From: Candidatus Vogelbacteria bacterium RIFOXYD1_FULL_51_18
GTDB taxonomy: Bacteria > Patescibacteriota > Minisyncoccia > Phycocordibacterales > UBA9988
Direction: 5' to 3'
Assembly (NCBI GenBank): GCA_001823095.1
Contig: MHTL01000002.1
Span: 1-49,598 of the forward strand
DNA length: 49,598 nucleotides
Part shown: piece after piece, positions 1 to 43,247 of the stretch
How positions within the stretch are numbered: the first letter of the stretch is position 1
How the letters are laid out: each line of letters starts with the position of its first letter
Position numbers and translations under genes: made by a program
Notes under the pieces: generated by a model
Told to the model about the DNA's origin: nothing
The model's input: only the letters and a program-made list of their open reading frames with translations
Databases searched by the model: none

Positions 1-51
1 GCAATCCTAGCATACTTTAAAAGTGTCGGCTAATCTGCTAGAATCCGCTTT

Positions 52-738
52 ATGTCAACACATGCATCACAAAGCGGAGCGCGCGTCTTCCTCTGGCTTT
101 TAGGCCTCACGCTCATTGCGCTTGCAGGGTTTATTGTTTATATGGCAACGCGGGATGGGGGAGGAGGGAGTGGAACCCTCGCGCCGGGGCTGAAGAATGA
201 TGATCATGCAAGAGGAGCAAGCTCCAATACGCTTGTTTTTGTGGAGTACAGCGATTTTGAGTGCCCCGCGTGTTTAGCGGCGCAACCGGCACTACGCTCG
301 TTGTACGCTGAATTTGCTTCAACGACGACCTTTGTGTACCGTCATTTGCCCTTGTCCCAGCATAAAAACGCAGAGCTTGCAGCGCTTGCCTCCGAGGCGG
401 CCGCCAAGCAGGGCAAGTTTTGGGAGATGCACGATACGCTTTTTGACAGCCAACGGGAGTGGGCGGGAATACCAAATGACCAAGCAAAAGCGTACTTTGT
501 GAAGCTTGCCGAAGGACTTACCCTTGAGACAGTGCGTTTTGCTGTCGACATGGAGAGCGAGGAGCTCCGCGTGCGAGTGCGGCGCGACGCCGATGAGGCG
601 GCGCGCATCGGCGTGCGGGGCACGCCAACCTTCTATGTTAATGGGGTCCAGCTGAAGGTAAAGAGTTTTGATGACCTGCGTGTAGCGCTCCTTGCCCTGA
701 ACGCAGTTGAAGGGTTTGCTACAAGTACAACTCAATAA
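52..738 (+). CDS. DsbA-family (thioredoxin-fold) disulfide oxidoreductase, membrane anchored
   Basis: N-terminal TM helix, EYSDFECPAC active site, cis-Pro loop GVRGTPTF; adjacent to VKOR. Confidence 0.92.
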   Translation: MSTHASQSGARVFLWLLGLTLIALAGFIVYMATRDGGGGSGTLAPGLKNDDHARGASSNTLVFVEYSDFECPACLAAQPALRSLYAEFASTTTFVYRHLPLSQHKNAELAALASEAAAKQGKFWEMHDTLFDSQREWAGIPNDQAKAYFVKLAEGLTLETVRFAVDMESEELRVRVRRDADEAARIGVRGTPTFYVNGVQLKVKSFDDLRVALLALNAVEGFATSTTQ

Positions 739-1178
739 TGACATACAAAACAGTAGCAGGATTCTGGATTGCGCTCGCTTTCCTCGGGCTTATAGATGCG
801 GGCTATATTACGGTGAAGTACTACTCGGGCGGTGAGGTGGCCTGTCCCATCACCGGCGGCTGCAGTGATGTGCTCACGAGCGCCTACAGCCAGATTATGG
901 GCTTCCCCGTCTCTGCTTACGGCCTCATCTTCTACCTCGCAGCGCTCTTGCTCGCATTCCTCTACCTTGATAGTGGCAGAAAGTGGATTGAGAACGCCAT
1001 GCCCTTACTTGGGTTTACGGGCTTTCTCTTCACCCTCTGGTTCGTGTATCTCCAAATTTTTGTCATTGAGGCAATCTGCTTTTACTGCATGGTCTCGGCG
1101 CTCCTCTCCACCACCATCTTTGCCCTTGCTCTTGCCGCATTTCTCACGCATCGGGGGGAAACAGCTATTCAAGACTGA
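738..1178 (+). CDS. Vitamin K epoxide reductase (VKOR) family DsbB analogue
   Basis: ACPITGGCSDVLTSAYS loop cysteines, CFYC redox motif, several TM helices; start overlaps dsbA stop. Confidence 0.92.
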   Translation: MTYKTVAGFWIALAFLGLIDAGYITVKYYSGGEVACPITGGCSDVLTSAYSQIMGFPVSAYGLIFYLAALLLAFLYLDSGRKWIENAMPLLGFTGFLFTLWFVYLQIFVIEAICFYCMVSALLSTTIFALALAAFLTHRGETAIQD

Positions 1179-1182
1179 ACCG

Positions 1183-1256
1183 TGGTGCGGGTAGGGAGAA
1201 TCGAACTCCCGTCTCATCCTTGGCAAGGACGTGTTCTACCACTAAACCATACCCGC
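1183..1256 (-). tRNA. tRNA-Gly(GCC)
   Basis: Reverse complement GCGGGTATGGTTTAGTGGTAGAACACGTCCTTGCCAAGGATGAGACGGGAGTTCGATTCTCCCTACCCGCACCA: cloverleaf, GCC anticodon, TTCGA T-loop, encoded CCA. Confidence 0.97.
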
Positions 1257-1470: not shown

Positions 1471-1519
1471 TTGTGCTATAATTAACGAGAACGTACTTTA
1501 TTCTTCAGGAGGTGTAAGA

Positions 1520-1744
1520 ATGGTAATTGGAACAAAAGAACTGTCACTTATTGGCGAGTACTGCACACTGCTCAACACAGAGGGCGTACAGGCCGCCGAT
1601 ATATTTCTGGCCCATTTAGCGCCCGAAGACTGGACGATGGTCAGGAATGAGGCTCTGGCTGCTCGCTTCATTTTCACTCACCGTCCTTCTGGAAATAGAC
1701 CTTATCCACTCCCGTCTGCAGGTGCATACCCAGCTGCGCTATAG
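1520..1744 (+). CDS. Small hypothetical protein (74 aa)
   Basis: TGcTATAAT promoter at about 1474-1482 and strong AGGAGGT RBS before the ATG. Confidence 0.6.
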
Positions 1745-1751
1745 TGCAGAG

Positions 1752-1886
1752 GTGAAAGCCTATTGCTACCTCAACGGGCGTATCGTCCCGCTTGCCAAAG
1801 CGGGACTTTCTCTTTCTGACCTCGGCGTCCTGCGTGGCTATGGGGTCTTTGACTTTCTGCGTACCTACAACGGCAAGCCTTTCTGA
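1752..1886 (+). pseudogene. Truncated class IV PLP aminotransferase (IlvE/Dat/PabC-like) N-terminus
   Basis: [13 protein letters not shown]...[23 protein letters not shown] is a typical class IV N-terminus but stops after 44 codons. Confidence 0.8.
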
Positions 1887-4043: not shown

Positions 4044-4634
4044 TTATGCCTTCTTTGCTTGAAGTATTTTATCAATGAGACCGTACTTCTTTGCCTCTTC
4101 AGAGCCCATCCAATTGTCGCGCTCGGAATCACGCTCAACAATGTCGGGACTCTTGCCGGTATGCTTGGCAAGGAGCATGTTGAGCCGGCTTTTAAGCTTG
4201 AGGATGTAGCGCGCGTTAATCTCAATGTCGGTGGCCTGGCCCTGGAAGCCGGAGGAAATCTGGTGGATCATGATGTCGGAGTTGGGAAGGCAGTAGCGCT
4301 TACCCTTGGCGCCGGACGCAAGGAGAAAGGCGCCCATGGAGGCCGCGACACCCACGCAGATGGTGGAGACGTCAGGCTTGACGTATTGCATTGTGTCGTA
4401 GATGGCGAGCCCTGCGGCTACCGAGCCGCCCGGCGAGTTGATGTAGAGGAGCATGTCCTTCTGCGCGTTCTCCGATTCCAGAAAGAGCATCTGGGCAATG
4501 ACGAGGTTTGCCACATGGTCGTCAATGGGACCGCCGAGGAAGATGATGCGGTCCTTCAGGAGGCGCGAGTAAATGTCGTAGGCGCGCTCGCCGTAGGTGG
4601 ATTTTTCGATAACCGTCGGGATGAGAATTGACAT
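4044..4634 (-). CDS. clpP: ATP-dependent Clp protease proteolytic subunit
   Basis: [45 protein letters not shown] (catalytic Ser), MIHQ; start trimmed from the 4847 ORF. Confidence 0.97.
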
Positions 4635-4807
4635 AATTGAAATATAACGTACTAAGTTTTGAGTGTCAATCCCTTGTAATGCCATGGAGAGTGCCGGAGG
4701 ATAGGTAGGCATGGGCAATCCCTTACTCATCAGCAAAGACCTTATTCCACCGGTCTTGCACTGACTTTTCCATGTGCAAACTATAACAAAACGTGGTCGA
4801 GAATAAA

Positions 4808-5526: not shown

Positions 5527-5579
5527 GATACTATCCTTTCTGGTTGGTTTTTCTTTCGTTTCGCAGTAAACTCAATTTA

Positions 5580-6143
5580 ATGAGTAGCCTAGACGATAAG
5601 GAGAACAGTGAGGCATTGATGGTATTGTGCGACAAGGATATTTTCCCGGATGCGCTAGATCTAACCAGTGTAGTTTGGAAAGATCGTCTAACCGGCAAAG
5701 TTGTTCTCTTCAATGAAGAGAACGAGATTGCTTTAATCGGTAATAAGGTAAACGATTTTTTCCTGTTGCCCGGAGGCGGGATAGAGAACGCTGAGTCTGT
5801 TGTCGAGGGTGTCAAGCGTGAATGTCAAGAAGAGACGGGTTGCGAAATCGAGATTCAGAATGCGCTTGGTATAACCGAGGACTTCCGTGCTCGTGACGGT
5901 AGACACTGCATCAGTTACGGATATTGTGCGAAAACCATCTCTTACGGCACTGCGGTTCCCACTAAAAAAGAGACCGATATCGGTGCCTACGTGAGATGGC
6001 TTTCTTTACCCGAAGCAATTGCATTGTTCGTATCACAAGAAAAAAAGGTAAAGGCTGGCGAGGTAAAGTTCTACAACACCTGCTTTAACATATTTCGTGA
6101 TTCGCTTTTTGTCCGCCGCGCTCAAGACATTATTCAGGGATAG
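5580..6143 (+). CDS. NUDIX hydrolase
   Basis: Nudix box PGGGIENAESVVEGVKRECQEETG. Confidence 0.9.
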   Translation: MSSLDDKENSEALMVLCDKDIFPDALDLTSVVWKDRLTGKVVLFNEENEIALIGNKVNDFFLLPGGGIENAESVVEGVKRECQEETGCEIEIQNALGITEDFRARDGRHCISYGYCAKTISYGTAVPTKKETDIGAYVRWLSLPEAIALFVSQEKKVKAGEVKFYNTCFNIFRDSLFVRRAQDIIQG

Positions 6144-6624: not shown

Positions 6625-6807
6625 AATAGCTCCTTTTGTAAATGTACAATTCTGTTTTGACTCTGGACTCTATAAACATTATATATAAAAGACAGAAAAA
6701 GTCAATCCCTTCGTCCGTAATACTGCAAAATTGAAAAAATCAAAGATTAAAATGACAATGCAAAGTGTAAAATTTTAAATTTTTTCTCTATTTTCCATTT
6801 TGATATT

Positions 6808-7827
6808 TTATTTTTGATTTTCCAAAAATTTAAGTACAAGCTCATTGGTAAGCTGGCCTGCCACATGCGTATGCAGACGAGAGGGATCGGCATCCGGGTA
6901 ATGCTCTAGCAAATGGGCAACTTCATGCGAGATCTCTTCTTCATTCGGCGCGAGCTTCTCCATCTCGGCGATTTTAGCGAGGATGAGTCCCAGTGAGACG
7001 CGCCTCTCGGCATCCGCCTGCCAAACTGCGCGCAATTCGTCCTCTGTTTTTTTGATGTGGGCGAGGTAATCGGGGAACTTGAGTCCCATATGCTCGATAT
7101 TTGCGCGCAGTTCCGCAAGCATTTTCTCTGTTTCTGCGGCAACCAGCGCTCGCGGTACTGTAATGGGTGTTTGTGCAAGGATGGCCTCTAATGCCCTCAT
7201 CCGCCGCTTATCGCGCGTCTTTACTTCTTTTTCTTCCTGGAGGTTCTCTTGTATTTTTGTTTTTAATTCATCAAGAGAAGCAAATTTTCCCACACTGTGC
7301 GCAAATTCATCGTCCGCCGCGGCGGATGCAGGGAGCTCCATTCCATCGTTTCTCCGCGCTTCCCGCAACTCATTCAGTACGGACTCCACTTCTTGGTTGC
7401 TTACGGTAACAGGTTCTGCTTCTTGCGCGAATTCTTGTTCAGCGATTCTGTGGTAATCGGGGAGCTTCACCTCCGGCGTCACGGCAGTCTTAATGGCAAA
7501 GCCCAAAGGGTTATCCTTGGCGAGCTTGGTGATGGTGATTTCAGGGCGGCCGATGGCGTCAATGTTCTGTTCGGCGAGCATTCCCGGGTATTCTGCCGCA
7601 AGCGTCCGCTCCGCCATTTCGTACAGGACGGCAGATTCACCAACATTCTGGACGAGCACCTTCTCGGGAATATGTCCGGAGCGGAAGCCCTCAATGTGTG
7701 CATCCTCCCCCAACTCCTTCACTGCACTTCCCCAGTATGACATAAAAAGCTCTACCGGGATTTCTCCCGTGAGCGTCTTCTCTGATGGCCCGGAATCAGT
7801 TACGGTGAGGGTAATTTTACCTACCAT
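6808..7827 (-). CDS. tig: Trigger factor (short form lacking FKBP domain)
   Basis: Ribosome-binding IEGFRSGHIP, PEVKLPDY, DDEFA; only 339 aa. Confidence 0.93.
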   Translation of the reverse strand: MVGKITLTVTDSGPSEKTLTGEIPVELFMSYWGSAVKELGEDAHIEGFRSGHIPEKVLVQNVGESAVLYEMAERTLAAEYPGMLAEQNIDAIGRPEITITKLAKDNPLGFAIKTAVTPEVKLPDYHRIAEQEFAQEAEPVTVSNQEVESVLNELREARRNDGMELPASAAADDEFAHSVGKFASLDELKTKIQENLQEEKEVKTRDKRRMRALEAILAQTPITVPRALVAAETEKMLAELRANIEHMGLKFPDYLAHIKKTEDELRAVWQADAERRVSLGLILAKIAEMEKLAPNEEEISHEVAHLLEHYPDADPSRLHTHVAGQLTNELVLKFLENQK

Positions 7828-7844
7828 AGACCGCTACTCTAACA

Positions 7845-14797: not shown

Positions 14798-14860
14798 ACT
14801 TATCAACTATTTTACATCCGCCGCAGTCGGACTGCGGCGGATTATTGCTATACTAAATGC

Positions 14861-16615
14861 GTGCACACTGACCTAGAGCGGTTGAAAGTGTTTTTGGTTG
14901 ACTCCGGCTTGGTAAGCGAAGCCGATATTGATGCGGCCTCCGAGGAGGGACACACACGCAATCTTTCTTTCCAGGATATTCTCATTTCGCAGGGTAAGCT
15001 TTCTGAAGATGAGTTGCGCAAAGCGCAAGCGTATATCTTAGGCATCCCCTTTGTCTCACTTCAGGGGGAGAAAATAGATTTTTCCGTGCTCTCTACCATT
15101 CCCGAGCCGGTTGCTCGCAAATACAACATTGTCGCCTACAAGCGCAGTGAGACGGCGCTTGAGGTTGCCATGCTGGACACGGAAGACCTCGAGGCAATTG
15201 AGTTTGTAAAAAAGAGCGTGGGGCTGCGCATCCTTGCGCGACTCACCGACACCGAGAGTATGCGGCAGGCCCTCGTCCAATACCAAAAGAGTCTCAAGGC
15301 CGAGTTCGGCGACATCATCCAGAAAGAGGCCAAATCTATCACTGCGCTTTCCGAGAATATGAGTCCGGAAGAGGGCAAAGAAGCGCTCAAAAAAATGGCC
15401 GAGGACCTGCCCGTTGTGCGCATCGTGGACACCCTGCTCTCCCATGCGATCATTCAAAAGGCGTCCGACATCCACGTTGAGCAATACGAGCGGGAAGTGG
15501 TCATCCGCTACCGCATTGACGGCATTCTCCACGATGCCATGATCCTGCCGAAGAACGTCGGTCCCGGCATCATTGCGCGCGTTAAAGTGCTCTCTAGCCT
15601 GCGCCTGGATGAAAAGCGCCTCCCCCAAGACGGTCGCTTTAAAATAGATTCGCAAGGGACCAAGGTCTCTTTTCGCGTCTCCATACTCCCCACCTACTAC
15701 GGCGAGAAGGTGGTGATGCGCCTCCTCCCCGACGCGGTAAAGGGCTACACCCTGGAGGGGCTCGGCTTCCACGGGGCGGGGCTTGAACGCGTCCATGACG
15801 CAACGAGGAAGACGACGGGCATGATTCTCGTGACCGGCCCGACGGGGAGCGGCAAGTCAACCACGCTCTACACCATTTTGGATATTTTGAACAAGCCTGA
15901 CGTCAACATCTCCACTATTGAGGACCCGATTGAGTACCAGATGGCGCGCATCAACCAGACGCAAGTCAAGCCGGACATTGGTATGACCTTTGCCGCCGGC
16001 CTGCGTTCCCTCATGCGGCAGGACCCCGACATTATTATGGTGGGAGAAATCCGCGACAAAGAGACGGCAAATCTTGCGATCAACGCCGCGCTCACGGGCC
16101 ACCTCGTGCTCTCTACACTCCACACCAACTCGGCGGGGGCCACCATCCCGAGAATGCTCGATATGGGCGCCGAACCATTTCTCCTTGTGTCCACCATCAA
16201 TGTGATTGTCGCCCAGCGTCTCGTGCGCAAGCTCTGCAGGACGGAAAAGGAGGAATATCGGCTGACTGCCGCCGAGGCTGAAAAACTGGCAAAGGAAGTT
16301 GACCTCCCGCGAGTACTGAAAGTCCTTGAAGCGGAGTCTATTATTAGCCCCGGTACACCGATCACTGATGTTCCCTTCTTTAAGCCTAGACAAACTCCTG
16401 ACTGCCCCGAAGGTTATTCTGGCCGTATTGGCATCCACGAGATCATGGCCATGTCCCCCATCGTGAAGGACATGGTGATGAAGGGTGCAACAGCCGCGGC
16501 CATTGAGGAGCAGGGACGGAAGGAGGGGATGCTCTCTATGATGGAGGACGGCATTTATAAGGCGGCGCAGGGTATTACCACCATTGAGGAGGTGCTCCGC
16601 GTCGCAGCAGAGTAG
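14861..16615 (+). CDS. pilB: Type IV pilus assembly ATPase (PilB/GspE)
   Basis: ASDIH, RLPQDGR, Walker A GPTGSGKST, TIEDPIEY, RQDPDIIMVGEIRD, GHLVLSTLH. Confidence 0.93.
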   Translation: MHTDLERLKVFLVDSGLVSEADIDAASEEGHTRNLSFQDILISQGKLSEDELRKAQAYILGIPFVSLQGEKIDFSVLSTIPEPVARKYNIVAYKRSETALEVAMLDTEDLEAIEFVKKSVGLRILARLTDTESMRQALVQYQKSLKAEFGDIIQKEAKSITALSENMSPEEGKEALKKMAEDLPVVRIVDTLLSHAIIQKASDIHVEQYEREVVIRYRIDGILHDAMILPKNVGPGIIARVKVLSSLRLDEKRLPQDGRFKIDSQGTKVSFRVSILPTYYGEKVVMRLLPDAVKGYTLEGLGFHGAGLERVHDATRKTTGMILVTGPTGSGKSTTLYTILDILNKPDVNISTIEDPIEYQMARINQTQVKPDIGMTFAAGLRSLMRQDPDIIMVGEIRDKETANLAINAALTGHLVLSTLHTNSAGATIPRMLDMGAEPFLLVSTINVIVAQRLVRKLCRTEKEEYRLTAAEAEKLAKEVDLPRVLKVLEAESIISPGTPITDVPFFKPRQTPDCPEGYSGRIGIHEIMAMSPIVKDMVMKGATAAAIEEQGRKEGMLSMMEDGIYKAAQGITTIEEVLRVAAE

Positions 16616-21736: not shown

Positions 21737-21753
21737 TGCGCTATACTGGGATG

Positions 21754-22563
21754 ATGAGAGATAGTATCCTTGCCTGTAATTGGAAGATGAATCCCGGGCG
21801 CCGCCACGAGGCGGAGACCCTCTACCAAGGGCTCGTAGCCGCAAGTAAGGCGCTTAAAGCTTCTGAAATCTGGATTGCTCCGCCTACGCCCTTTATAGAT
21901 GGCTTGCGCGAACGGCGGATTTTCAAGCGGCTCTCTCTGGGGGCTCAAGACTGCTCGCGCTTTACGATGGGCGCCCACACCGGGGAGGTGAGCGCTGCAA
22001 TGCTCAAGGAGGCGGGCGCACAATTTGTGATTGTCGGACACTCCGAGCGCCGCGCCATGGGGGAGAGCGATACGGACGTGAATACGAAGGTGCAGTATGC
22101 GCTGAAGGCAAGAATCACCGTGCTTCTGTGTGTGGGAGAAAAGCTCCGTGACGGAGATGGGGAGTACCTTGCGGTTATCGCGAGCCAAGTGAGGAGCGCA
22201 CTCATGGGCGTGCCCAAGAGCGCCTCGTGCCGCCTCGTGATTGCCTATGAGCCGGTGTGGGCCATTGGTGAGCATGCGGCGGCGCCCGCAACCCCGGAGG
22301 ATTTCAGAAGCGTCTCCATCTACATTAAAAAAGTGGTCAGCGAGCAGGTGGGCGCTGGCGCCGCGCTCTCGGTGCCGGTTCTCTACGGCGGCTCGGTGTC
22401 AAAAGACAATGCTATGGGTTTCTTGGACGAGGGGCATGCGGACGGGCTCCTCATCGGGAGGGAGTCGCTCAAACTCTCTGCCATGAAGACAATCATCGCT
22501 GATGCCGAAGCGCTCGGGCGGGCGCGGGCACAGAGAAGCAGAAAACATGAGAGAACTCGCTAA
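21754..22563 (+). CDS. tpiA: Triosephosphate isomerase
   Basis: NWKMN, GHSERR, AYEPVWAIG, YGGSV. Confidence 0.96.
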   Translation: MRDSILACNWKMNPGRRHEAETLYQGLVAASKALKASEIWIAPPTPFIDGLRERRIFKRLSLGAQDCSRFTMGAHTGEVSAAMLKEAGAQFVIVGHSERRAMGESDTDVNTKVQYALKARITVLLCVGEKLRDGDGEYLAVIASQVRSALMGVPKSASCRLVIAYEPVWAIGEHAAAPATPEDFRSVSIYIKKVVSEQVGAGAALSVPVLYGGSVSKDNAMGFLDEGHADGLLIGRESLKLSAMKTIIADAEALGRARAQRSRKHERTR

Positions 22564-23720: not shown

Positions 23721-24167
23721 TTATTTTACCACGCTGGAATCTGATGAAGGCGGGTTTGCCAATTCTGCTCTGATTGTGGCGGCGGCAGTGGAGAGCTCGG
23801 TGGGAGAAACATCTTCTTTGCCTCCCCAGTGCACGTGCCCATCATCCTTATAGCGCGGCATGATGTGCACATGAGAATGGAATATGAGTTGTCCCGCGGC
23901 CCCCTCGTTATTCCAACCAATGTTAATGCCGTCAGCTTTAGTTGAGGACTGTATTGCTGTTGCAAGCTTTTGTAGAACTGGCCCTACTTCACGCAAGAGT
24001 TTTGCCGGCATATCAAAGAGATTGCGATAGTGCTTTTTAGATACAAGGAGTGTATGCCCCACATGGAGGGGCTTGATGTCTAAAAACGCCACAAAGCGTT
24101 CATCCTCGTAGACTTTCTCGGCAGGAATAGCCCCTGCTATAATCTTGCAAAAGACGCAGTCCTCCAT
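23721..24167 (-). CDS. HIT family nucleotide hydrolase
   Basis: MEDCVFCKII, FLDIKP, GHTL, FHSHVHIMPR. Confidence 0.93.
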   Translation of the reverse strand: MEDCVFCKIIAGAIPAEKVYEDERFVAFLDIKPLHVGHTLLVSKKHYRNLFDMPAKLLREVGPVLQKLATAIQSSTKADGINIGWNNEGAAGQLIFHSHVHIMPRYKDDGHVHWGGKEDVSPTELSTAAATIRAELANPPSSDSSVVK

Positions 24168-24197
24168 GCCACCAGTATATGCTACAATGCTCTCGTT

Positions 24198-26370: not shown

Positions 26371-26375
26371 CTTCA

Positions 26376-26870
26376 TTAAAAAAATCTGACCAGTGCAAGT
26401 GCTCCTGCAAGAATCAACAGCTGTGAAATTACTGCGCTAGCACTCCACCGCAATTTTTTTGAATGCATAAAATCTTGGAAGTCTTGGTTCCATTGCAAAA
26501 ATCGTGAAGGAAATCCTGCGTGGAGAGCCGAGAGGAGGTCAGGGAGAATTGAACCAAGTCCAAGGAGGAAGAGGGGGAGAGGGTGTGCGAGAAAATTTTC
26601 CAGTCCAAGCGCCGCGACAGCAAGCGTTGCGCCGAGCGCTATGTCAAAGCCGACCCGCCCGCAGTCGTGGATGAGAAAATCCAAGAGATTGAAGCGCGGC
26701 GGGTTGGGCCCCTCATTAAACGCATAGCGCAGTTTATAGTCGTAGTGGGGGACGGTATCGGCGAGGTAGTGGCTCCCCAGCGCAAACGCAAAAAGCGCCA
26801 CAGGCGGCACTGCGCCAACGAAGGGCGCTCCGAGAGCGCCGGCAATGGCAATATGCGTGGCGAGTGTCAT
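26376..26870 (-). CDS. Membrane protein, putative metal-dependent hydrolase (YdjM-like)
   Basis: MTLATH, SHYLADTVPH, GSILPD, H near C-terminus; hydrophobic. Confidence 0.7.
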   Translation of the reverse strand: MTLATHIAIAGALGAPFVGAVPPVALFAFALGSHYLADTVPHYDYKLRYAFNEGPNPPRFNLLDFLIHDCGRVGFDIALGATLAVAALGLENFLAHPLPLFLLGLGSILPDLLSALHAGFPSRFLQWNQDFQDFMHSKKLRWSASAVISQLLILAGALALVRFF

Positions 26871-26931
26871 GGCAACTAGTGTAGCAAAAGAGACTTGCCA
26901 CGGCGAAGCCAATGTGGATTATACTGGGTAG

Positions 26932-28308
26932 ATGCTCGCGCTCCTTATTGGCGCCGCGCTCGCACTCTATGGGTGGAGGGTGGGAGACCGGGCGATTTCC
27001 CTCATAGGGTTTGCGATTTTTGTGCTCGGACTTGGGTTTTTACGTTATGCGGCGCTCACAGGGGAGAGCTCTCTCCCCCACTATGGCCGAACTGTGCTTA
27101 CCGGCACGATTATTGACTACCCGGACCAGCGCGAGAGCTCGGTGCGCGTGGTCATAGAGCCGGAAGGTGAACACGAGCGCGTGCTCGTAATGGCTCCCGT
27201 AGGGACGCAACTTGTCTACGGCGATACGGTGCGGGTCACGGGCGCCATTGCAGTGCCAAAAAATTTTAAGACCGATACCGGAAGGGACTTTGACTACACA
27301 GGGTATCTGCGGCGGCAGGGGATTAGCCGCGAAATTTCTTTTGCGGATATAGAAGTGCTTGAACCGGCAAGTCTCTCGCTCAAAGGAGCGCTTTTTGCAT
27401 TCCGTCGCGCGATTGAAAAGCAATTGCACCAAACCCTCTCCGAGCCGGAAGGCTCGCTCGCGCTCGGCATGCTCCTGGGCGGCAAGGCGGGACTCGGAGA
27501 TGAACTTACCAAAGTGTTCCAGCGCGCGGGCATCATCCATATTGTTGTCCTCTCGGGCTACAACATTATGCTTGTTGCGGAGGGAGCGCGCCTCGCGCTT
27601 GCGCGCGCACCCTTCTTTGCGCGGATGACGGGGAGCGGGACATTTGTCGTTCTCTTTGTGCTTATGGCGGGAGCCGAGCCGGCGGCGCTGCGCGCAGGCG
27701 CCATGGCGCTCATCGCGCTCCTCGCCCGCGCGACGGGGAGGCCATACACGGCCCTGCGCGCGCTTACGATTACCGCCGCCGCCATGACGCTGTGGAATCC
27801 GCTCATTCTCACACATGACCCGGGCTTTATTCTATCGGTGCTGGCAACGCTCGGTATCATTCTCTTGACTGACCCTATTTCAAAAAAATTCTCACGGATT
27901 AGGTGGAAGTTTTTGCGCGAGATTCTTGCAACAAGCACTGCCGCATATGCCGCGGTGCTCCCGTACCTGGCGCTCCAGATCGGCGCAGTGAGCACGGTGG
28001 CGCTCCTCGTTAACCCGCTGGTGCTCCCGCTTGTTCCGCTTGCCATGGCGCTTGGCACCGCCACCGCCGTGCTCGCGTTTGTAAGCCCCGCTCTTGCGCT
28101 CGTCACGGCGCTACCGCTCATTCTCATCCTGCGCATTATGATTGCTGTTGCCCGCGCCTTTGCCGCGCTCCCTCTTGCCTCGCTCACCGTCCCCGCATGG
28201 AGCGGGTATGCGCCGATGTTCGTGTATGTTGGTGTGGGAGTGTGGTATTGGTGGTATAGAAAAAGAAAAAGCCCCGACACGCTTGCGCGATCGGGGCAAA
28301 TAAACTAA
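26932..28308 (+). CDS. comEC: ComEC/Rec2 DNA-uptake channel (DUF4131-like OB plus Competence domain)
   Basis: FDYTGYL, GIIHIVVLSGYN, RAGAM, DPGFILS. Confidence 0.92.
   Translation: MLALLIGAALALYGWRVGDRAISLIGFAIFVLGLGFLRYAALTGESSLPHYGRTVLTGTIIDYPDQRESSVRVVIEPEGEHERVLVMAPVGTQLVYGDTVRVTGAIAVPKNFKTDTGRDFDYTGYLRRQGISREISFADIEVLEPASLSLKGALFAFRRAIEKQLHQTLSEPEGSLALGMLLGGKAGLGDELTKVFQRAGIIHIVVLSGYNIMLVAEGARLALARAPFFARMTGSGTFVVLFVLMAGAEPAALRAGAMALIALLARATGRPYTALRALTITAAAMTLWNPLILTHDPGFILSVLATLGIILLTDPISKKFSRIRWKFLREILATSTAAYAAVLPYLALQIGAVSTVALLVNPLVLPLVPLAMALGTATAVLAFVSPALALVTALPLILILRIMIAVARAFAALPLASLTVPAWSGYAPMFVYVGVGVWYWWYRKRKSPDTLARSGQIN
28271..28297 (-). terminator. Terminator for the 28344-29888 gene, inside the comEC 3' end
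   Basis: GCCCCGA...TCGGGGC followed by TTTTTCTTTT on the minus strand. Confidence 0.55.
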
Positions 28309-29888: not shown

Positions 29889-30008
29889 TTCTAATCTCCT
29901 TGTTTTCAATGATCAACCCCGTAAAACGGGGTTTTATAAGCTCTTTTTACATGATAGCATGTTTTTATATCTTTGTCAATCTTCCGCGTGAGGAGCTACA
30001 ATGGAGTC

Positions 30009-30860
30009 ATGCAGAAGCTCAAAATTGGGGTTTTGGCAGGATTAACTCTCCTCACCGCGCTTGTGTGGTATGCAGTCTGGCAGGAAGAGCAGAGGGGGCT
30101 CACCGTGGCTTTTTTGGATGTTGGGCAGGGCGATGCCGTTTATATAGAAGCTCCCAACGGCAATCAACTCCTTATCGACGGCGGGCGGGGGAGGGCAGTC
30201 CTGCGGGAGCTCGGCGCTGTAATGCCTCTCTATGACCGCAGCATTGATGTGGTGCTGGCTACACACCCTGACGCCGACCATATCGGCGGGCTCATCCCGA
30301 TGCTGGAATCCTACCGCGTGGGCGCGGTGATTGAGTCCGGCAATGAGCGCGAGACGGCGGTGACTGTAGGTTTTGAAAGAGCCGTGGCGCAGGAGGGGGC
30401 ACTGCGCGTTGCCGCGCGGCGCGGAATGCGCGTTGATCTCGGGGACGGCGCCGTGTTTACTATCCTGTATCCGGATAGGAACGTTGCACGAGTGGAATCA
30501 AACGAGGCGTCCATTGTGGGCCAGCTCCGCTACGGCAGTACCACCGTGCTCCTCACGGGCGATGCGCCCGCAAGTGTGGAGCGCATTCTTATTGCAAAGG
30601 ACGGTAGCGGGCTACAGAGCACGGTGCTCAAGCCGGGTCACCACGGTTCGCGCAGCTCCTCTGTGCTGGAGTTCCTTGCCGCTGTTTCGCCGGAGCTCGC
30701 CGTTATCTCGGCGGGCACGGGCAACAGCTATGGGCATCCGCACACGGAGGTGCTTGCGCGCCTCGCACAATCAAAAATCCGTACCCTGCGTACGGATGTG
30801 GAGGGGAGAATTATATTGAAGAGCGATGGGCGGCGCTTGAGCGTGAGTGCAGAGAAGTAG
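30009..30860 (+). CDS. ComEC-associated MBL-fold metallo-hydrolase
   Basis: FLDVGQGDA, LIDGG, THPDADHIGG, LLTGD, HHGS, NSYGHPH. Confidence 0.92.
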   Translation: MQKLKIGVLAGLTLLTALVWYAVWQEEQRGLTVAFLDVGQGDAVYIEAPNGNQLLIDGGRGRAVLRELGAVMPLYDRSIDVVLATHPDADHIGGLIPMLESYRVGAVIESGNERETAVTVGFERAVAQEGALRVAARRGMRVDLGDGAVFTILYPDRNVARVESNEASIVGQLRYGSTTVLLTGDAPASVERILIAKDGSGLQSTVLKPGHHGSRSSSVLEFLAAVSPELAVISAGTGNSYGHPHTEVLARLAQSKIRTLRTDVEGRIILKSDGRRLSVSAEK

Positions 30861-32319: not shown

Positions 32320-32540
32320 GGCAACCTCCTATTCAGTTTTATCGGTGCAATATCTAACAATGATATTAGCAAAATGATCATAAAAGTCAACACTAAAAAT
32401 AATAAAATTATGACGGCCGTCTTGAAATTATTATCAGTTTGAAACTTGGTCATTAGAACCTGCTACTTACCGCCCCGACACATCGGTGTCGCGGGCTTTT
32501 TCTTGCACATTTTTGGCGCGTATAGTAGAGTTACGCTCGT

Positions 32541-32963
32541 ATGCCGACAATTAATCAGCTCGTCCGCCGCGGGAGAAAGCGGCAGGTCAAGAAGGCACGC
32601 ACCGTCGGGCTCGCGCGCGGTTTCAATACGCTCAAAAATAAACCTGTTTTCTACCCGTCTCCATTCAAGCGCGGCGTGTGCATCCAAGTCAAGACCACCA
32701 CGCCTAAAAAGCCGAACTCCGCTCTGCGCAAAATTGCCCGCGTGCGCCTCACCAACGGCATGGAGGTGACTGCCTACATCCCCGGCGAGGGGCACAACCT
32801 GCAGGAGCACTCGGTGGTGCTTATTCGCGGTGGGCGCGTCAAGGACCTCCCGGGTGTGCGCTATCACATCGTCCGCGGCGTGCTGGACACCAGCGGGGTG
32901 GAAAAGCGCCGCCAGTCCCGCTCGCTCTACGGCTCAAAAAAGAATACGGTAGTCGCCAAATAA
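32541..32963 (+). CDS. rpsL: 30S ribosomal protein uS12
   Basis: [32 protein letters not shown]. Confidence 0.99.
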
Positions 32964-40043: not shown

Positions 40044-40070
40044 TACTCCAGACCAGAGTATAATAGGAAT

Positions 40071-40628
40071 ATGGACTGGAACGTGATTATTCCTATTGCG
40101 GCAACGGTCATTGCCGGTGTTATTGCATGGTTTTTAAAGAATACCATTGAGAATTTGGTGAATACCGACAGGAGGATAGAGGTGAAAGTAGACAGAATTG
40201 AATCGTTTATCAAAGCCGCTTCTAACTCAATCGTCGAGATACAGACTCTCTTGGGCGGAAGAGGTTTTACTATCAATCAGAAACTTGCGTATGCCCCGGG
40301 CAGCCCTCTCAAACTGACTGATTATGGGGAGACGATAATGAATGAGAGCGGGTTCTATACGATTCTGAAAGAGAATGGTGACTTTTTTGTTGATCTTGTC
40401 AAAAGCAAGAATCCGCAGACAAACTATGATATCCAAGATTACTCTATGGCAGTGCTCAAAGAACTGGCAGATGCAAACAACCTGTTGGCAATACCTCTTA
40501 AGGAATATGCCTTTAATGAGGGCTTACCCCTTGAGATCGTACTGAACAGCGCGGGCATTGTGTTGCGGGATGAAGTGATGAAGGAATTGAGTTTTGGAGA
40601 CGCTACCCTTGATAAAAAACCATTGTAA
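40071..40628 (+). CDS. Hypothetical single-pass membrane protein
   Basis: N-terminal TM, SPLKLTDYG and YDIQ segments; AT-richer than flanks; TATAAT 6 nt before ATG. Confidence 0.75.
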   Translation: MDWNVIIPIAATVIAGVIAWFLKNTIENLVNTDRRIEVKVDRIESFIKAASNSIVEIQTLLGGRGFTINQKLAYAPGSPLKLTDYGETIMNESGFYTILKENGDFFVDLVKSKNPQTNYDIQDYSMAVLKELADANNLLAIPLKEYAFNEGLPLEIVLNSAGIVLRDEVMKELSFGDATLDKKPL

Positions 40629-40713
40629 TCTAGTGGGTGGATAAATGAGTTTGATGGCACGGAGCCTCGGGTGTATAATGAATTCAGGTCTTTTTAGTAA
40701 TAAATTCATAGCT

Positions 40714-42924
40714 ATGATACGAAAATTAGTGGTACTCGGTGTTATCGTTATCGCAGTGTTTGCGGTAGCGGGCCAGGCGCAGGCGGCAACCTGCACCCTC
40801 TTGACCGTCAACTTGCGCAATGGGAGCTCCGATGCACTCATTGGTAGCCAGGTAAGCTCGCTCATTCACTTTTTGCAGGAGTCCGGTCATATCTCCTCTG
40901 CGGTTGCGCTGACACCAGGCCGGATGACCTTTGGTCCGCAGACACTCGCGGGACTTAAGAGCTTCCAAGTGTCCGAACGGCTGGCGCCAACGGGGGTTGC
41001 CAATCTCGCCACGCGCTTTCGCATCTTTGCGCGATCCTGCGGGGCAGGGAGTATTACTCCAACTCCCACGGTCTCTGGCTGGCAGGCGGGAAGCCCGCGC
41101 ACAGTCACTTGGAATCGTGCGCTCATACGCGCGGCAAACGTGGAGCTGGCGCTTAAAAAGATTGATACTTCTGCACGCTATGTGATTGCCGCGGCAACAT
41201 CTAACGACGGCTCCGAACTCCTCGTCCTGCCTTCATCGCTTCCTGCTGGCTACTACGACCTTGAGGTGCGCTTTGTGTTCACCTTTGGCGGGAAGAACTA
41301 CGCGCTTGGCTACCCGGCCGCCGCCGCGCGGCAGGTGAATGTGGCGGCAGTAAGCTACTCCGGTGGGGGAGGCGTGAGAGGAGAAAGTAACGCGCAACGG
41401 GAAGAACGCGAAGCGCGCGAACGCGAAGCGGCCGCAGGCTCCTTTGATACCCTCTCGGCGCCCGGGATACTAGTAAACGGAGCCATAGGGACGCTTAATG
41501 TGAGAGGCACTAATATTGCCCGTTATGACGTCATATTTACCTGTGCGAGCAGTTATGCCGCTGCATACCATTCATTAACGGGAGAAGTCTTCTGTGCTTC
41601 CTCGCGTCCGGCATACAACCTTGGAACTATTTCTATTTCTGGTTCCGAAGGGTCACTTAACTTCCAAGCAGTTAACCCTAGCGTTTCTCAGAATGGAATA
41701 ATGACGCTAACTGTCCGTGCCTATAATTCCGCAGAGTCTCTTGTCGATGAGAAATCAGTGACGATTACAGTAACTCCGTACGGAGGAGTATCGTCTTTTG
41801 GGCTTACGGTAGATAAGTCAGGGACTCTTAGCTCTGGAACATCAGTCAATATCACCAAGTCTTACAGTAATCTTGCACGAGTTGAGTCAGTGATGACCTG
41901 TAGCGCGGGGATATCAGCACGGAATATAAGTAATCAGGAACTCTGTAACACAGGGACAAAGAGCGAGGGTGTACCATCGTTTGCGACTGGCGACCTCCTG
42001 TATGCGACTCTCACAAACAGCTCTGCAGTGACTGGCAACATGAGCTACACCGCACGCGGATACAATTCTGCAGGAACATTGATTGGCAGCAGAACGATTA
42101 GCTTGAGCGTGGCGCCGGCTTCTGCACAATCTTCACTCGGCGCTCTCTCGGTGAGTGGCGGTAACACTATTCTCTCGGGCACTTCAGCAAATGTATACCA
42201 AACATTCAGCAATGTTGCCCGGATTGAATCAGACATGCTCTGTGGCCTCGGTGTGAGCGCTATGAATATTAGCAGCAGTGCAAGCCAGAACTGGTGCAAT
42301 AGCGGCATACGCACTGAAACCCAACCATCCACTGCCACCAATCGCTTGCTCTCCTTCACTTTCACCAACAGCGGCCAATCAAACGGCACGGCAGCGCTCA
42401 CTACCCGCGGCTACAATGCCTCCGGCGCGTTGGTGGGAACACAGTCAACAACCCTTACCGTGACGCCGGCGCCTTCAGCCCTGCCGCAGCCATCGCCTTC
42501 TCCTTCCGGATCTTTCAGTTACCTCTCGCTACCTTCGATTATTCTCGGCGGGACGACGGGTACACTGTACGCGAGCGGCAGCGGGATCAGCCACTACACG
42601 GTTGATTTCAACTGCGGTTCCCTTGGCGGTGCATACATTTACCATCCCACCTCTGGAGAACTCTATTGCTCATTCCAGCATGCTTCCATCACTGTTGCCG
42701 GTCCAAACGCCTCACTCTCGTTTCTTGCGATGAACACATCCGGCACAGCCAAAAGTGTTTCGGTTACTGTGCGCGCGTATCGATCTGACGGATCGCTCGT
42801 TGATACGAAGTCAGCTGACGTTAGAGTAAATTCGGCTTCTGCGCTCGCTCCCTCTTCTACCCAATACGGCGCGGTGGGCGCATTGCTCCAGCAGTTTATC
42901 AATCTCATACTTAATTCACGGTAG
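40714..42924 (+). CDS. Secreted surface protein: peptidoglycan-binding-like domain plus four Ig-like repeats
   Basis: Signal peptide; FGPQTLAGLKSFQ...PTG PGBD-like motif; four repeats of about 110 aa, each with two Cys. Confidence 0.8.
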   Translation: MIRKLVVLGVIVIAVFAVAGQAQAATCTLLTVNLRNGSSDALIGSQVSSLIHFLQESGHISSAVALTPGRMTFGPQTLAGLKSFQVSERLAPTGVANLATRFRIFARSCGAGSITPTPTVSGWQAGSPRTVTWNRALIRAANVELALKKIDTSARYVIAAATSNDGSELLVLPSSLPAGYYDLEVRFVFTFGGKNYALGYPAAAARQVNVAAVSYSGGGGVRGESNAQREEREAREREAAAGSFDTLSAPGILVNGAIGTLNVRGTNIARYDVIFTCASSYAAAYHSLTGEVFCASSRPAYNLGTISISGSEGSLNFQAVNPSVSQNGIMTLTVRAYNSAESLVDEKSVTITVTPYGGVSSFGLTVDKSGTLSSGTSVNITKSYSNLARVESVMTCSAGISARNISNQELCNTGTKSEGVPSFATGDLLYATLTNSSAVTGNMSYTARGYNSAGTLIGSRTISLSVAPASAQSSLGALSVSGGNTILSGTSANVYQTFSNVARIESDMLCGLGVSAMNISSSASQNWCNSGIRTETQPSTATNRLLSFTFTNSGQSNGTAALTTRGYNASGALVGTQSTTLTVTPAPSALPQPSPSPSGSFSYLSLPSIILGGTTGTLYASGSGISHYTVDFNCGSLGGAYIYHPTSGELYCSFQHASITVAGPNASLSFLAMNTSGTAKSVSVTVRAYRSDGSLVDTKSADVRVNSASALAPSSTQYGAVGALLQQFINLILNSR

Positions 42925-42971
42925 ACACACATAGCTTCTGTTTTTGCGTCGCATTGTGATATAGTTGAGAA

Positions 42972-43247
42972 ATGCAGAAGTTGCCTCAAATATTCAAATC
43001 CATACTCTGGGCCCATGATTTTGATAAATGTGATCCTGAAAAGATGAAAAAAACCATAATCATTCAAGCTCTTAGCTATGGCACATTAGACCATTGGAAT
43101 TGGATCAGGTCGTTTTATGGAGATGCCGAGATAACAAACATCTTATCCAGTGTCCCAATGACCGAGATCCGATCCAAGACTCGCGCATTGATAGAGACAA
43201 TTTTTAATTTCAATGATTGGAATTATGCACCCAGAGGTTCTAAGTGA
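42972..43247 (+). CDS. DUF6922-like small protein, partner of the nucleotidyltransferase
   Basis: ILWAHDF...IIIQALSYGT...W....YG pattern; overlaps next gene. Confidence 0.7.
   Translation: MQKLPQIFKSILWAHDFDKCDPEKMKKTIIIQALSYGTLDHWNWIRSFYGDAEITNILSSVPMTEIRSKTRALIETIFNFNDWNYAPRGSK

What the first reader, a model, noticed from the sequence alone, without database searches (positions are those of the whole stretch)
39..42974. Widespread leaderless-mRNA architecture: -10 hexamer 6-9 nt before start codons
Seen: a TANNNT hexamer, often TG-extended, ends a short fixed distance before the start codon with no SD. Cases (spacer in nt): dsbA TAGAAT 39 (7), aminotransferase remnant TATAGT 1740 (6), clpP TATATT (6), NUDIX TAAACT 5567 (7), tig TAGAGT (8), pilB TATACT 14849 (6), tpiA TATACT 21742 (6 to ATG 21754), HIT TATACT (6), recJ TACAAT 24183 (9), 26870 TACACT (7), comEC TATACT 26920 (6), MBL TACAAT 29997 (6), 40071 TATAAT (6), 42972 TATAGT (6). 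Established: sigma70 transcription starts about 6-8 nt after the -10 box. Inference: transcription begins at the start codon, so leaderless translation may be a dominant mode in this CPR lineage, whose ribosome may also lack uL1.
Basis: partly seen in the sequence, partly recalled or inferred. Interest (0 to 1): 0.75.

Follow-up and report, generated by a model that had tools for sequence, protein, structure and literature searches.

The report
Leaderless gene starts in anti-SD-less Parcubacteria
In this tiny uncultured groundwater bacterium, about a quarter of all genes sit directly behind a promoter, so their messenger RNAs should begin at the start codon; this way of starting genes is known from other bacteria and is seen here in a lineage whose ribosome has lost its usual mRNA-docking sequence.

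Summary
All 14 cited hexamer-to-start pairs are in the sequence with the stated spacers.

Genome-wide (634 kb, 603 genes with a complete 5' end, my own gene caller), TANNNT ends exactly 6 nt before the longest-ORF start in 82 genes. Dinucleotide shuffles give 13.8 +/- 3.8. It ends 6-9 nt before the start in 167-168 genes (28%), against 52.6 in shuffles.

The hexamer is a sigma70 promoter element, not a ribosome site:
- It carries an unselected TG extension and a TTG -35 at 17 bp.
- It also precedes tRNA genes.
- It is at background level where genes overlap.

The 16S tail reads CUUCC where CCUCC belongs. uL1 was not found, and rplK is followed by dcd rather than rplA.

"Dominant" is overstated. 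The pattern covers 40-54% of genes that must be first in their unit. A small AAAGGAG (Shine-Dalgarno-like) class also exists. No transcript data could be obtained.

This is a known kind of organisation (Deinococcus-Thermus, Actinobacteria) in a new lineage. This scan has already noted the same pattern in at least 8 other CPR genomes.

The parts
39..54 (+). Extended -10 tgcTAGAAT, 7-nt spacer, ATG of a DsbA-like thioredoxin. TTTAAA lies 17 bp upstream of the hexamer.
1740..1754 (+). TATAGT, 6 nt, GTG 1752 (44-aa remnant inside a 79-aa ORF). The weakest cited case.
   Evidence: (no Pfam match)
4632..4646 (-). TATATT, 6 nt, ATG 4634 of clpP. Consensus TTGACA lies 17 bp upstream.
   Evidence: (CLP_protease 15-193 on model 3-181)
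5567..5582 (+). TAAACT, 7 nt, ATG 5580 of a NUDIX hydrolase.
7825..7841 (-). tgtTAGAGT, 8 nt, ATG 7827 of trigger factor.
14849..14863 (+). tgcTATACT, 6 nt, GTG 14861 of the pilB-type ATPase.
   Evidence: Among 77 orthologous loci, 34 have TANNNT 5-10 nt before an in-frame start.
21742..21756 (+). TATACT, 6 nt, ATG 21754 of tpiA. The box begins 6 nt after the stop codon of the upstream gene.
   Evidence: TIM 5-249 on model 2-243
24165..24179 (-). TATACT, 6 nt, ATG 24167 of a HIT protein. It lies back to back with the recJ box.
24183..24200 (+). tgcTACAAT, 9 nt, ATG 24198 of recJ.
26868..26883 (-). tgcTACACT, 7 nt, ATG 26870 of a 164-aa protein with no Pfam match.
26920..26934 (+). TATACT, 6 nt, ATG 26932 of comEC.
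29997..30011 (+). TACAAT, 6 nt, ATG 30009 of a metallo-beta-lactamase-fold protein. An in-frame TTG at 29973 lies upstream.
32526..32543 (+). TAGAGT, 9 nt, ATG 32541 of rpsL, with TTGCAC 17 bp upstream.
40059..40073 (+). TATAAT, 6 nt, ATG 40071 of a 185-aa protein with no Pfam match.
42960..42974 (+). tgaTATAGT, 6 nt, ATG 42972 of a DUF6922 protein.
43906..43920 (+). TAGAAT, 6 nt, ATG 43918 of secE.
1477..1522 (+). Contrast case, not leaderless: strong ttgtgcTATAAT box, then about 30 nt of leader with AGGAGGTG 7 nt before ATG 1520 (74-aa ORF with no Pfam match).
44993..46641 (+). rplK (uL11) is followed by dcd where rplA (uL1) normally lies. dcd has GATCTTTGACGTGAAAGGAG before its GTG.

Best explanation
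These are ordinary sigma70-type promoters, mostly of the extended -10 type with consensus TGcTATACT and often a TTG-type -35 17 bp upstream. They are placed so that RNA polymerase starts at, or 1-3 nt before, the start codon. The resulting mRNAs have no 5' leader and no room for a Shine-Dalgarno site.

By inference, translation starts when a ribosome with initiator tRNA binds the 5'-terminal AUG, as for leaderless mRNAs elsewhere. This fits an organism whose 16S rRNA has lost the CCUCC anti-SD.

About a quarter of all genes, and about half of the genes that must head a transcription unit, are built this way, including genes separated by only 15-60 nt from the gene before. Genes that overlap or abut the previous gene lack the box and most likely start by translational coupling. 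A further set has short SD-less leaders, and a few per cent carry an AAAGGAG motif.

Shown: motif, geometry, enrichment, promoter identity, conservation in relatives, altered 16S tail, uL1 not found. Inferred: the transcription start position and the mode of ribosome loading.
For: (1) Sharp positional peak. TANNNT at spacer 6 occurs in 13.6% of 603 genes; at spacers 7, 8 and 9 in 5.5, 5.0 and 4.6%; neighbouring spacers give 2.3-2.8%. Shuffle z-scores are 17.9 and 16.4.

(2) Gene-call-free tests give the same peak.

(3) Promoter identity. In 167 sites aligned on a hexamer selected only as TANNNT, T is 0.52 and G is 0.62 at the TG-extension positions. T 0.51, T 0.38 and G 0.38 stand 23-21 nt upstream, which is a -35 at 17-bp spacing. 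Examples: clpP TTGACA-17-TATATT, rpsL TTGCAC-17-TAGAGT, dsbA TTTAAA-17-TAGAAT.

(4) The same motif (PWM score 8 or more) lies within 120 nt upstream of 19 of 40 tRNA genes, where about 3.4 are expected.

(5) Context. With TGnTAnnnT at 6-9 the counts are: divergent 24/142, gap of 60 or more 21/167, gap 15-59 11/89, gap 0-14 3/101, overlap 5/91. Controls are 0-5.

(6) Start codons are ATG in 150/168 genes behind a box, against 303/435 in the rest. TTG occurs in 1 of 82 at spacer 6.

(7) A sigma factor with regions 3 and 4 lies in one 417-aa frame.

(8) Conservation. In a same-genus genome (median 69% protein identity), 13 of 15 orthologues with a clean N-terminal alignment keep a start codon with TANNNT 5-10 nt upstream while the spacer sequence differs; 18 of all 32 do so under naive mapping.

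(9) TGnTAnnnT at 6-9: G000 62/583 (control 2), G001 28/249 (1), G018 23/261 (3), G017 14/127 (1), E. coli 0/92 (1).

(10) The 16S tail reads GGAAUUCUUCCGAA against the consensus GGAUcACCUCCUUu. All 21 genomes of the order with this region assembled lack CCTCC.

(11) SD 4-mers at spacers 4-10: 72/584 against 42/584 at a control offset here; 34/92 against 1/92 in E. coli.
Against: - No transcription start is mapped. No RNA run holding this DNA was listed, so transcripts starting further upstream cannot be excluded.
- Gene starts come from my own ORF and dicodon caller, not an established program.
- Only 82 of the 168 sites have the exact spacing of 6. Spacers 7-9 would leave 1-3 nt of leader if the start is 7 nt after the box.
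- 58 of 142 divergent genes show no box near any candidate start.
- Strong boxes also occur 20-120 nt upstream of starts. Window examples are 13251 to ATG 13291 and 31074 to ATG 31103.
- The PWM was trained on the spacer-6 set, so its count at spacer 6 is circular.
- A minority of genes carry AAAGGAG at SD distance. The one before dcd is kept in G001 and G003.
- Of 32 orthologue pairs, 14 failed the naive conservation test.
Confidence: 0.85

Rival explanations
1. The boxes are real promoters, but the mRNAs are not translated in the leaderless way. Transcription starts a few nucleotides before the AUG, or at variable positions, and a 30S subunit picks the first AUG of a very short, unstructured leader by some 5'-end-proximal rule.
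For: - 86 of 168 sites have spacers 7-9.
- Among 77 pilB orthologues, many carry TGnTATAAT 12-25 nt before the ATG, that is, short SD-less leaders.
- In the window, the box at 13251 lies 34 nt and the box at 31074 lies 23 nt before an ATG without an SD.
- IF3 and a four-domain S1 protein are encoded.
Against: - The mode is exactly 6 nt, which puts the A of ATG at the canonical +1.
- The strong ATG preference, with TTG in 1 of 82 at spacer 6, fits a 5'-terminal purine start and leaderless initiation.
Confidence: 0.08
2. The TA-rich hexamer is a translation signal on longer mRNAs, a non-SD ribosome site read by this unusual ribosome, rather than a promoter.
For: - The organism lacks the anti-SD and needs some start-site cue.
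- No transcript data exist.
Against: - A TG extension and a -35 TTG at 17 bp accompany it.
- The same motif precedes tRNA genes.
- It is at background where genes overlap (TANNNT 8/91 against 2-5 at controls), although those genes also need translation.
Confidence: 0.04
3. The pattern is an artefact of base composition, of stop codons of upstream genes (TAA/TAG read as TANNNT), or of start-codon choice.
For: - 8 of 170 hexamers begin with the upstream gene's stop codon. Window examples are 20291 and 38229.
- The intergenic DNA is AT-richer than the coding DNA.
Against: - Dinucleotide shuffles reach at most 25, against 82 observed.
- Control offsets give 31-69, against 168.
- Starts were chosen without reference to the motif, and a test with no gene calls gives the same peak.
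- E. coli shows no peak with the same scripts.
Confidence: 0.02

Closest known systems
TA-led (leaderless) genes of bacteria: Zheng et al. 2011, BMC Genomics 12:361 (PMC3160421; abstract and passages read)
   Same: A TANNNT signal with its first T about 12 nt before the start codon is read there as a -10 box of a leaderless gene, and was validated against dinucleotide shuffles. That is the same geometry and logic as here.
   Different: That survey predates CPR genomes. Its table gives averages of Deinococcus-Thermus 39.4%, Aquificae 26.5% and Actinobacteria 19.2%. This genome gives 28% raw, or about 19% net by my cruder count, and its 16S lacks the anti-SD.
Deinococcus-Thermus '-10 region adjacent to ORFs': PMC12340547 (2025; passages read). 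D. deserti: PMC4007540 (abstract as shown in the search listing)
   Same: The -10 motif TANNNT next to ORFs was shown experimentally to act as a promoter for leaderless mRNAs. In D. deserti, 60% of mRNAs are leaderless or nearly so.
   Different: In that phylum the TANNNT motif coexists with a GGAG ribosome-site motif (passage read). Here the 16S anti-SD is altered and SD use is close to background. Nothing here is tested experimentally. 'Patescibacteria' occurs 0 times in the main text of PMC12340547.
Anti-SD-lacking, uL1-lacking subgroup of Parcubacteria: Tsurumaki et al. 2022, RNA 28:1041 (PMC9297842; passages read)
   Same: The same lineage-level traits are seen: the CCTCCT motif is missing from the 16S 3' end in lineages that overlap the uL1-lacking group. 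I reproduce this in 21 of 21 order members. In a class sample, 32 of 92 tails are CACCTCC, and all 15 uL1-positive genomes with a readable tail keep CACCTCC.
   Different: That paper calls the functional link unclear, and the word 'leaderless' occurs 0 times in it. The promoter-at-start architecture is the piece added here.
GeneMarkS-2 'group C' genomes (bacterial leaderless transcription).
   Same: A genome class in which a promoter box, not an RBS, is the main signal just upstream of many starts.
   Different: I could not run that program, and I do not know whether CPR genomes were classified by it.
Bacteroidia SD-independent initiation (PMC7797042 and PMC13000453; abstracts as shown in the search listing)
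   Same: SD motifs are largely unused.
   Different: There the anti-SD is present but sequestered by ribosomal proteins, and the mRNAs have leaders. Here the anti-SD sequence itself is changed and many mRNAs should have no leader.

Membership tests
Bacterial leaderless (TA-led) gene architecture | TANNNT box whose first T lies about 12 nt before the start codon (spacer about 6) | tested here: met
   The peak is at spacer 6: 82 of 602-603 genes, with a tail at 7-9.
Bacterial leaderless (TA-led) gene architecture | Enrichment above dinucleotide-preserving shuffles of the upstream regions | tested here: met
   82 against 13.8 +/- 3.8, and 167 against 52.6 +/- 7.0, in 300 shuffles.
Bacterial leaderless (TA-led) gene architecture | The box is a promoter element (sigma70 features, and use at non-coding genes) | tested here: met
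   TG extension and -35 TTG at 17 bp. 19 of 40 tRNA genes have the motif upstream. A sigma factor with regions 3 and 4 is encoded.
Bacterial leaderless (TA-led) gene architecture | Transcription start mapped at or within a few nt of the start codon | not testable with these tools
   No RNA run holding the stretch was listed.
Bacterial leaderless (TA-led) gene architecture | AUG (or GUG) at the 5' end, with TTG avoided | tested here: met
   ATG 150, GTG 12 and TTG 6 of 168. At spacer 6 the counts are 74, 7 and 1.
Anti-SD-lacking / uL1-lacking Parcubacteria (Tsurumaki 2022) | 16S 3' end without the CCTCCT motif | tested here: met
   The tail reads GGAAUUCUUCCGAA. No CCTCC occurs in the 120 nt that follow.
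Anti-SD-lacking / uL1-lacking Parcubacteria (Tsurumaki 2022) | No uL1 gene | tested here: met
   PF00687 finds nothing in six frames of a genome rated 99% complete, while 14 of 14 control genomes match. rplK is followed by dcd. A missed gene in an unassembled gap cannot be fully excluded.
Anti-SD-lacking / uL1-lacking Parcubacteria (Tsurumaki 2022) | Affiliation with Parcubacteria | tested here: met
   Most of the 80 kept loci for the PilB protein come from MAGs titled Paceibacteria, Paceibacterota, Taylorbacteria, Kaiserbacteria, Parcubacteria, Patescibacteria or 'uncultured Candidatus Saccharibacteria'. No tree was built.
Bacteroidia-type SD-blind ribosome | Canonical anti-SD present but sequestered | tested here: not met
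   The anti-SD sequence itself is altered.

The most novel reading that the evidence does not exclude
In the anti-SD-less Parcubacteria the 5' end of the mRNA, not a ribosome-binding sequence, is the general start-site selector. Promoter placement has taken over the job of the Shine-Dalgarno site.
- Even closely packed genes carry their own promoter inside or just after the preceding gene.
- Short SD-less leaders are read from the first AUG.
- Only overlapping genes are coupled.

The class as a whole was already SD-poor. SD 5-mers occur in 26 of 442 genes in seven genomes that keep the anti-SD, against 19 of 92 in E. coli. uL1 was lost first: every uL1-positive genome with a readable tail keeps CACCUCC, and some uL1-negative ones do too. 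The unused anti-SD then decayed, mostly by C-to-U changes, into a small hairpin.
Probability: 0.3. Interest if true: 0.65.

Novelty: new member of a known kind. Interest (0 to 1): 0.45.

Why it matters
- Gene calling. Gene finders tuned to Shine-Dalgarno sites will misplace starts in these genomes. In the window, clpP, HIT, MBL and tpiA all start downstream of the longest ORF.
- Mechanism. It gives a concrete answer to a question a published survey left open: how a ribosome without an anti-SD finds its starts (PMC9297842; passages read).
- Novelty. I found no paper linking leaderless mRNAs with CPR or Patescibacteria in the four searches. The five papers that hold both 'leaderless' and 'candidate phyla radiation' do not make the link; I checked passages in three of them and saw only the listing for the other two. 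Papers in subscription journals are not covered by these searches.
- Tool value. If confirmed by 5'-end mapping, the promoter consensus would be useful for the few cultivated Patescibacteria.
- Limit. The principle is not new, and this scan has reported the same pattern in at least 8 other CPR genomes.

Tried and rejected
- RNA evidence. One search for sequencing runs listed no RNA holder of window 20001-30000, so I laid no reads.
- Alternative SD for the altered tail. GGAAG/GAAGA/AGGAA, which would pair with UUCUUCC, show no positional peak before starts.
- Second anti-SD. CCTCC occurs once in the 16S gene, at position 1442, within the segment that the Rfam model aligns to helix 44, where an apparently complementary GTGGAGG lies on the other side of the 138-nt insertion (my reading). 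No separate CTCCTTTCAAAGATC exists in the genome.
- Weak SD use through CUUCC. I tested whether the CUUCC tail supports weak SD use in the genus. G001 has the same tail but shows no SD excess (11/249 against 7-11 at controls), so I dropped the idea.
- RNase P loss as an explanation for promoters abutting tRNA 5' ends. An RNase P RNA match (E 2e-17, below the gathering score) and RnpA are both present.
- Stop-codon artefact. It accounts for only 8 of 170 hexamers.
- GATCTTT as a genome-wide element. 78 sites were found, and the 8-mer GATCTTTG occurs 21 times against about 17.7 expected, so it is not enriched. Only 10 of the 78 lie before starts.
- Rows dropped. In one search, 3 of 80 pilB loci were dropped as truncated. 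In one search the ORF picked for G018, G019 and G023 was probably not dcd, so I did not use those three. In one search, 3 of 95 pattern matches are not 16S.

Full report
**Material and method**

The window is contig C2 of a 633,812-base genome in 20 contigs, rated 99% complete. No gene finder was available. I therefore wrote an ORF and dicodon caller, which gave 611 genes, 603 of them with a complete 5' end.

To keep the test free of circularity, I defined starts without looking at upstream motifs. One definition is the first ATG/GTG/TTG of the open frame ('longest'). The other is the start that maximises the coding score ('core').

**The observation**

All 14 cited hexamer-to-start pairs are present with the stated spacers. 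Six of the 14 have a TGn extension.

Pfam confirms the gene names: DsbA-like thioredoxin, ClpP, NUDIX, trigger factor, PilB-type ATPase, TIM, HIT, RecJ, ComEC and MBL fold. The proposed N-termini fit the domain models, for example TIM 5-249 on model positions 2-243, Trigger_N 7-154 on 3-144 and ClpP 15-193 on 3-181.

The GTG at 1752 is the weak case. It lies inside a 79-aa ORF and gives 44 residues with no family match.

The same rule picks out three further starts in the window:
- rpsL (TTGCAC-17-TAGAGT-9-ATG).
- secE (TAGAAT-6-ATG).
- tuf, weakly (TATCAT-6-ATG).

**Is it more than chance?**

Yes.
- Among 603 genes, TANNNT ends 6 nt before the longest-ORF start in 13.6%. It ends 7, 8 and 9 nt before in 5.5, 5.0 and 4.6%. 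Spacers 1-5 give 2.3-2.8%, and 8295 internal in-frame start codons give 0.3-1.3%.
- 300 dinucleotide-preserving shuffles of the 40 nt upstream give 13.8 +/- 3.8 (maximum 25) against 82 observed at spacer 6. For spacers 6-9 they give 52.6 +/- 7.0 against 167.
- With no gene calls at all, ATG follows the 994 TGNTANNNT sites of the genome at spacer 6 in 6.6%, against about 1-2% elsewhere. Of those 66 ATGs, 39 open at least 100 codons. The counts at other spacers are 25 at 7, 14 at 8, 12 at 10, 10 at 22, and 0-8 at the rest of spacers 0-24.
- The most enriched hexamers in the 20 nt before starts are TATACT, TAGAAT, TGCTAT and ATGCTA.
- 100 kb of E. coli K-12 run through the same scripts shows no such peak: 2 of 92 at spacer 6, and 0 of 92 for TGnTAnnnT at 6-9. 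It shows a clear SD peak instead, 34 of 92 against 1 of 92.
- Stop codons of upstream genes account for only 8 of 170 hexamers.

**What the hexamer is**

I aligned 167 sites selected only as TANNNT at spacers 6-9. They show features that were not selected:
- T 0.52 and G 0.62 at the two positions of the TGn extension.
- T 0.51, T 0.38 and G 0.38 at 23-21 nt upstream of the hexamer, which is a -35 TTG with the canonical 17-bp spacer.

A position matrix of the box finds a site scoring 8 or more within 120 nt upstream of 19 of 40 tRNA genes, where about 3.4 are expected. Thirteen of these lie 8-32 nt from the mature 5' end.

The box follows transcription-unit logic. TGnTAnnnT at 6-9 occurs before:
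- 24 of 142 genes with a divergent neighbour.
- 21 of 167 with a gap of 60 nt or more.
- 11 of 89 with a gap of 15-59 nt.
- 3 of 101 with a gap of 0-14 nt.
- 5 of 91 overlapping genes.

Control offsets give 0-5.

A sigma factor with regions 3 and 4 in one 417-aa frame is encoded. A translation signal would not carry a -35, would not precede tRNAs, and would be needed at overlapping genes too. I therefore read the box as a sigma70 -10 element.

With the hexamer at -12 to -7, the modal spacer of 6 puts the A of ATG at +1. Behind such boxes the start is ATG in 150 of 168 genes, against 303 of 435 elsewhere. TTG occurs once among the 82 spacer-6 genes. This fits a purine start of transcription and the AUG preference of leaderless translation (established knowledge, recalled).

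**How common it is**

By motif-independent starts, 168-170 of 603 genes (28%) have TANNNT at 6-9. Control offsets give 31-69, so the net figure is about 19%. If any candidate start up to the core start is allowed, the count is 227 of 603, against 59-91 at controls.

Among genes with a divergent upstream neighbour, which must head a unit, the share is 57 of 142 (40%) to 77 of 142 (54%).

Among the strongest boxes (matrix score 10 or more) within 200 nt upstream of starts, 51 lie at spacers 6-10 and about 60 elsewhere, where about 20 are expected by chance. The count at spacer 6 is inflated because the matrix was trained there.

Of 448 same-strand junctions, 192 are overlaps or gaps under 15 nt: 91 overlaps and 101 gaps of 0-14 nt, including 32 overlaps of 4 nt and 11 of 1 nt. 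These genes most likely start by coupling, which is an inference.

The architecture is therefore the commonest recognisable start signal, but it does not cover most genes. The share is in the range that Zheng et al. 2011 report for Actinobacteria (19.2%) and Aquificae (26.5%), and below Deinococcus-Thermus (39.4%) (PMC3160421, passages read).

**Ribosome side**

The single 16S gene (C11:9-1677) ends GGAAUUCUUCCGAA where the Rfam consensus has GGAUcACCUCCUUu. No CCTCC follows in the next 120 nt.

All 21 genomes of the same order in which this region is assembled lack CCTCC. Most read GGAAUAUUUCAAUUUGAA or similar.

In a sample of 151 genomes of the class, 95 rows matched the h45 motif, and 3 of them are not 16S. 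By my count of the printed rows, of the remaining 92:
- 32 carry CACCTCC.
- 12 carry TCTCC.
- 48 carry neither.

uL1 (PF00687) is not found in this genome, while 14 of 14 control genomes match. It is found in 22 of the 151 class genomes. All 15 uL1-positive genomes with a readable tail have CACCTCC, and 17 uL1-negative genomes have it too.

In the window, secE-nusG-rplK is followed by dcd rather than rplA.

This reproduces the overlap reported by Tsurumaki et al. 2022, who call the functional link unclear and never use the word 'leaderless' (PMC9297842, passages read). S1 (four domains in a 450-aa frame) and IF3 are encoded.

**Relatives**

TGnTAnnnT at 6-9 nt, with the control offset in brackets:

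| Genome | Count | Control |
|---|---|---|
| G000 | 62/583 | 2 |
| G001 (same genus) | 28/249 | 1 |
| G018 | 23/261 | 3 |
| G017 | 14/127 | 1 |

Pooled over smaller samples, with my sums of the printed spacers 20-23 as background:

| Group | Count | Background |
|---|---|---|
| Five anti-SD-less genomes of the order | 33/355 | 2 |
| Eight anti-SD-less genomes of other orders | 33/577 | 4 |
| Seven genomes with CACCTCC | 15/443 | 6 |

The signature is thus clade-wide and looks stronger where the anti-SD is gone. However, relatives are not independent, the samples are 40-280 kb each, and the anti-SD-positive genomes are more AT-rich. I call this suggestive only.

SD 5-mers are scarce even in the anti-SD-positive genomes: 16 of 239 and 10 of 203, against 4-9 at controls. 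E. coli gives 19 of 92 against 1-2.

Orthologue by orthologue, G001 keeps a start codon with a box 5-10 nt upstream in 13 of 15 cleanly aligned pairs, while the spacer letters differ. Under naive mapping the figure is 18 of all 32.

For pilB, 34 of 77 Parcubacteria loci have the box 5-10 nt before an in-frame start. Many of the rest have TGnTATAAT 12-25 nt upstream, which means very short leaders.

**What does not fit**

GGAGG/AGGAG/GAGGT stand 4-11 nt before 42 longest-ORF starts, against 14-16 at four control offsets. The flanking consensus AAAGGAG was not selected for.

Of the 48 such genes, 36 are divergent or follow a gap of 60 nt or more. In the window these include:
- dcd, thyX and tmk.
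- A cytidylyltransferase.
- Two proteins with no family match.
- A 74-aa ORF behind a strong TATAAT box with AGGAGGTG.

The dcd motif, with GATCTTTGA upstream, is kept in G001 and G003. Yet G001, which has the same 16S tail, shows no overall excess (11 of 249 against 7-11).

I cannot say what reads this motif. Pairing with the CUUCC tail would need a G-U wobble and at most 5-7 pairs (my own pairing by hand).

Leadered, SD-less genes also exist, for example the box at 13251 before ATG 13291 and the box at 31074 before ATG 31103.

**Verdict**

It is overstated on 'dominant' and on 'no SD', and no transcript 5' end has been mapped.

This is a known architecture in a lineage for which I found no description in four literature searches. 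Earlier notes of this scan report it in at least 8 other CPR genomes. Those are unchecked AI notes, and I do not count them as evidence.

Noticed in passing
window 45490-48271, also 1477-1744, 6624-6660(-), 29888-29920(-), 32319-32350(-); genome-wide: A minority of genes carry a canonical-looking AAAGGAG 6-10 nt before the start, although the 16S lacks CCUCC. The count is 42 against 14-16 at control offsets. In the window they include dcd, thyX and tmk. Several also have GATCTTT 5-15 nt upstream of the motif. The dcd case is conserved in G001 and G003, but G001 shows no global excess. This is unexplained.
   Followed up: partly
window 44993-46641: secE-nusG-rplK is followed directly by dcd. 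The usual rplA (uL1) slot after rplK is empty, which agrees with the genome-wide absence of a PF00687 match.
   Followed up: yes
G000 contig C11:1660-1690 (locus L001/L030) and loci L012-L032: The stretch that replaces the anti-SD can form a 3-4 bp hairpin. The stem letters differ between genomes in a compensatory way: TTCC-GAA-GGAA here and in G001, TTCA-AAT-TGAA and TCCA-AAT-TGGA in others. This was read by eye; no covariation statistic was run.
   Followed up: partly
G000 contig C11, about 1450-1590 (locus L001): A 138-nt insertion in the 16S gene, at the position the Rfam model aligns to the helix 44 loop.
   Followed up: no
G000, 40 tRNA genes: Several tRNA genes have the -10 box only 7-11 nt before the mature 5' end (for example Phe, Arg, Leu, Asp), so their precursors would have almost no 5' leader. 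An RNase P RNA match (E 2e-17, below the gathering score) and RnpA are nevertheless present.
   Followed up: partly
G000 contig C9:8759-8832 (-): ARAGORN calls a 74-nt tRNA with anticodon UUA, which would read the stop codon UAA. It has one mismatch in the anticodon stem and a -10-like box 7 nt upstream. TAA is the commonest stop of my gene calls (312 of 604), so the code does not look reassigned.
   Followed up: partly
window 40044-43836: The S10 ribosomal-protein operon (rpsJ-rplC-rplD-rplW-rplB) stops after rplB. Two large proteins with no Pfam match (185 and 759 aa) follow, then a DUF6922 / AbiEii-like pair, and then secE-nusG-rplK. GC content is 0.489 for window 40001-45000, against 0.55-0.58 for the windows between 15001 and 40000.
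   Followed up: no
window 24138-24200: The HIT and recJ promoters lie back to back: AGTATA-tgc-TACAAT, with the two -10 boxes 3 nt apart on opposite strands. A second strong box (ccctgcTATAAT at 24138) lies 54 nt upstream of the recJ ATG, inside the HIT coding region.
   Followed up: no
window 47524-47590: A strong box ctctgcTATACT is followed after 6 nt by a GTG that opens only 17 codons. It lies 112 nt upstream of tmk and may be a leaderless mini-ORF or a leadered tmk promoter.
   Followed up: no
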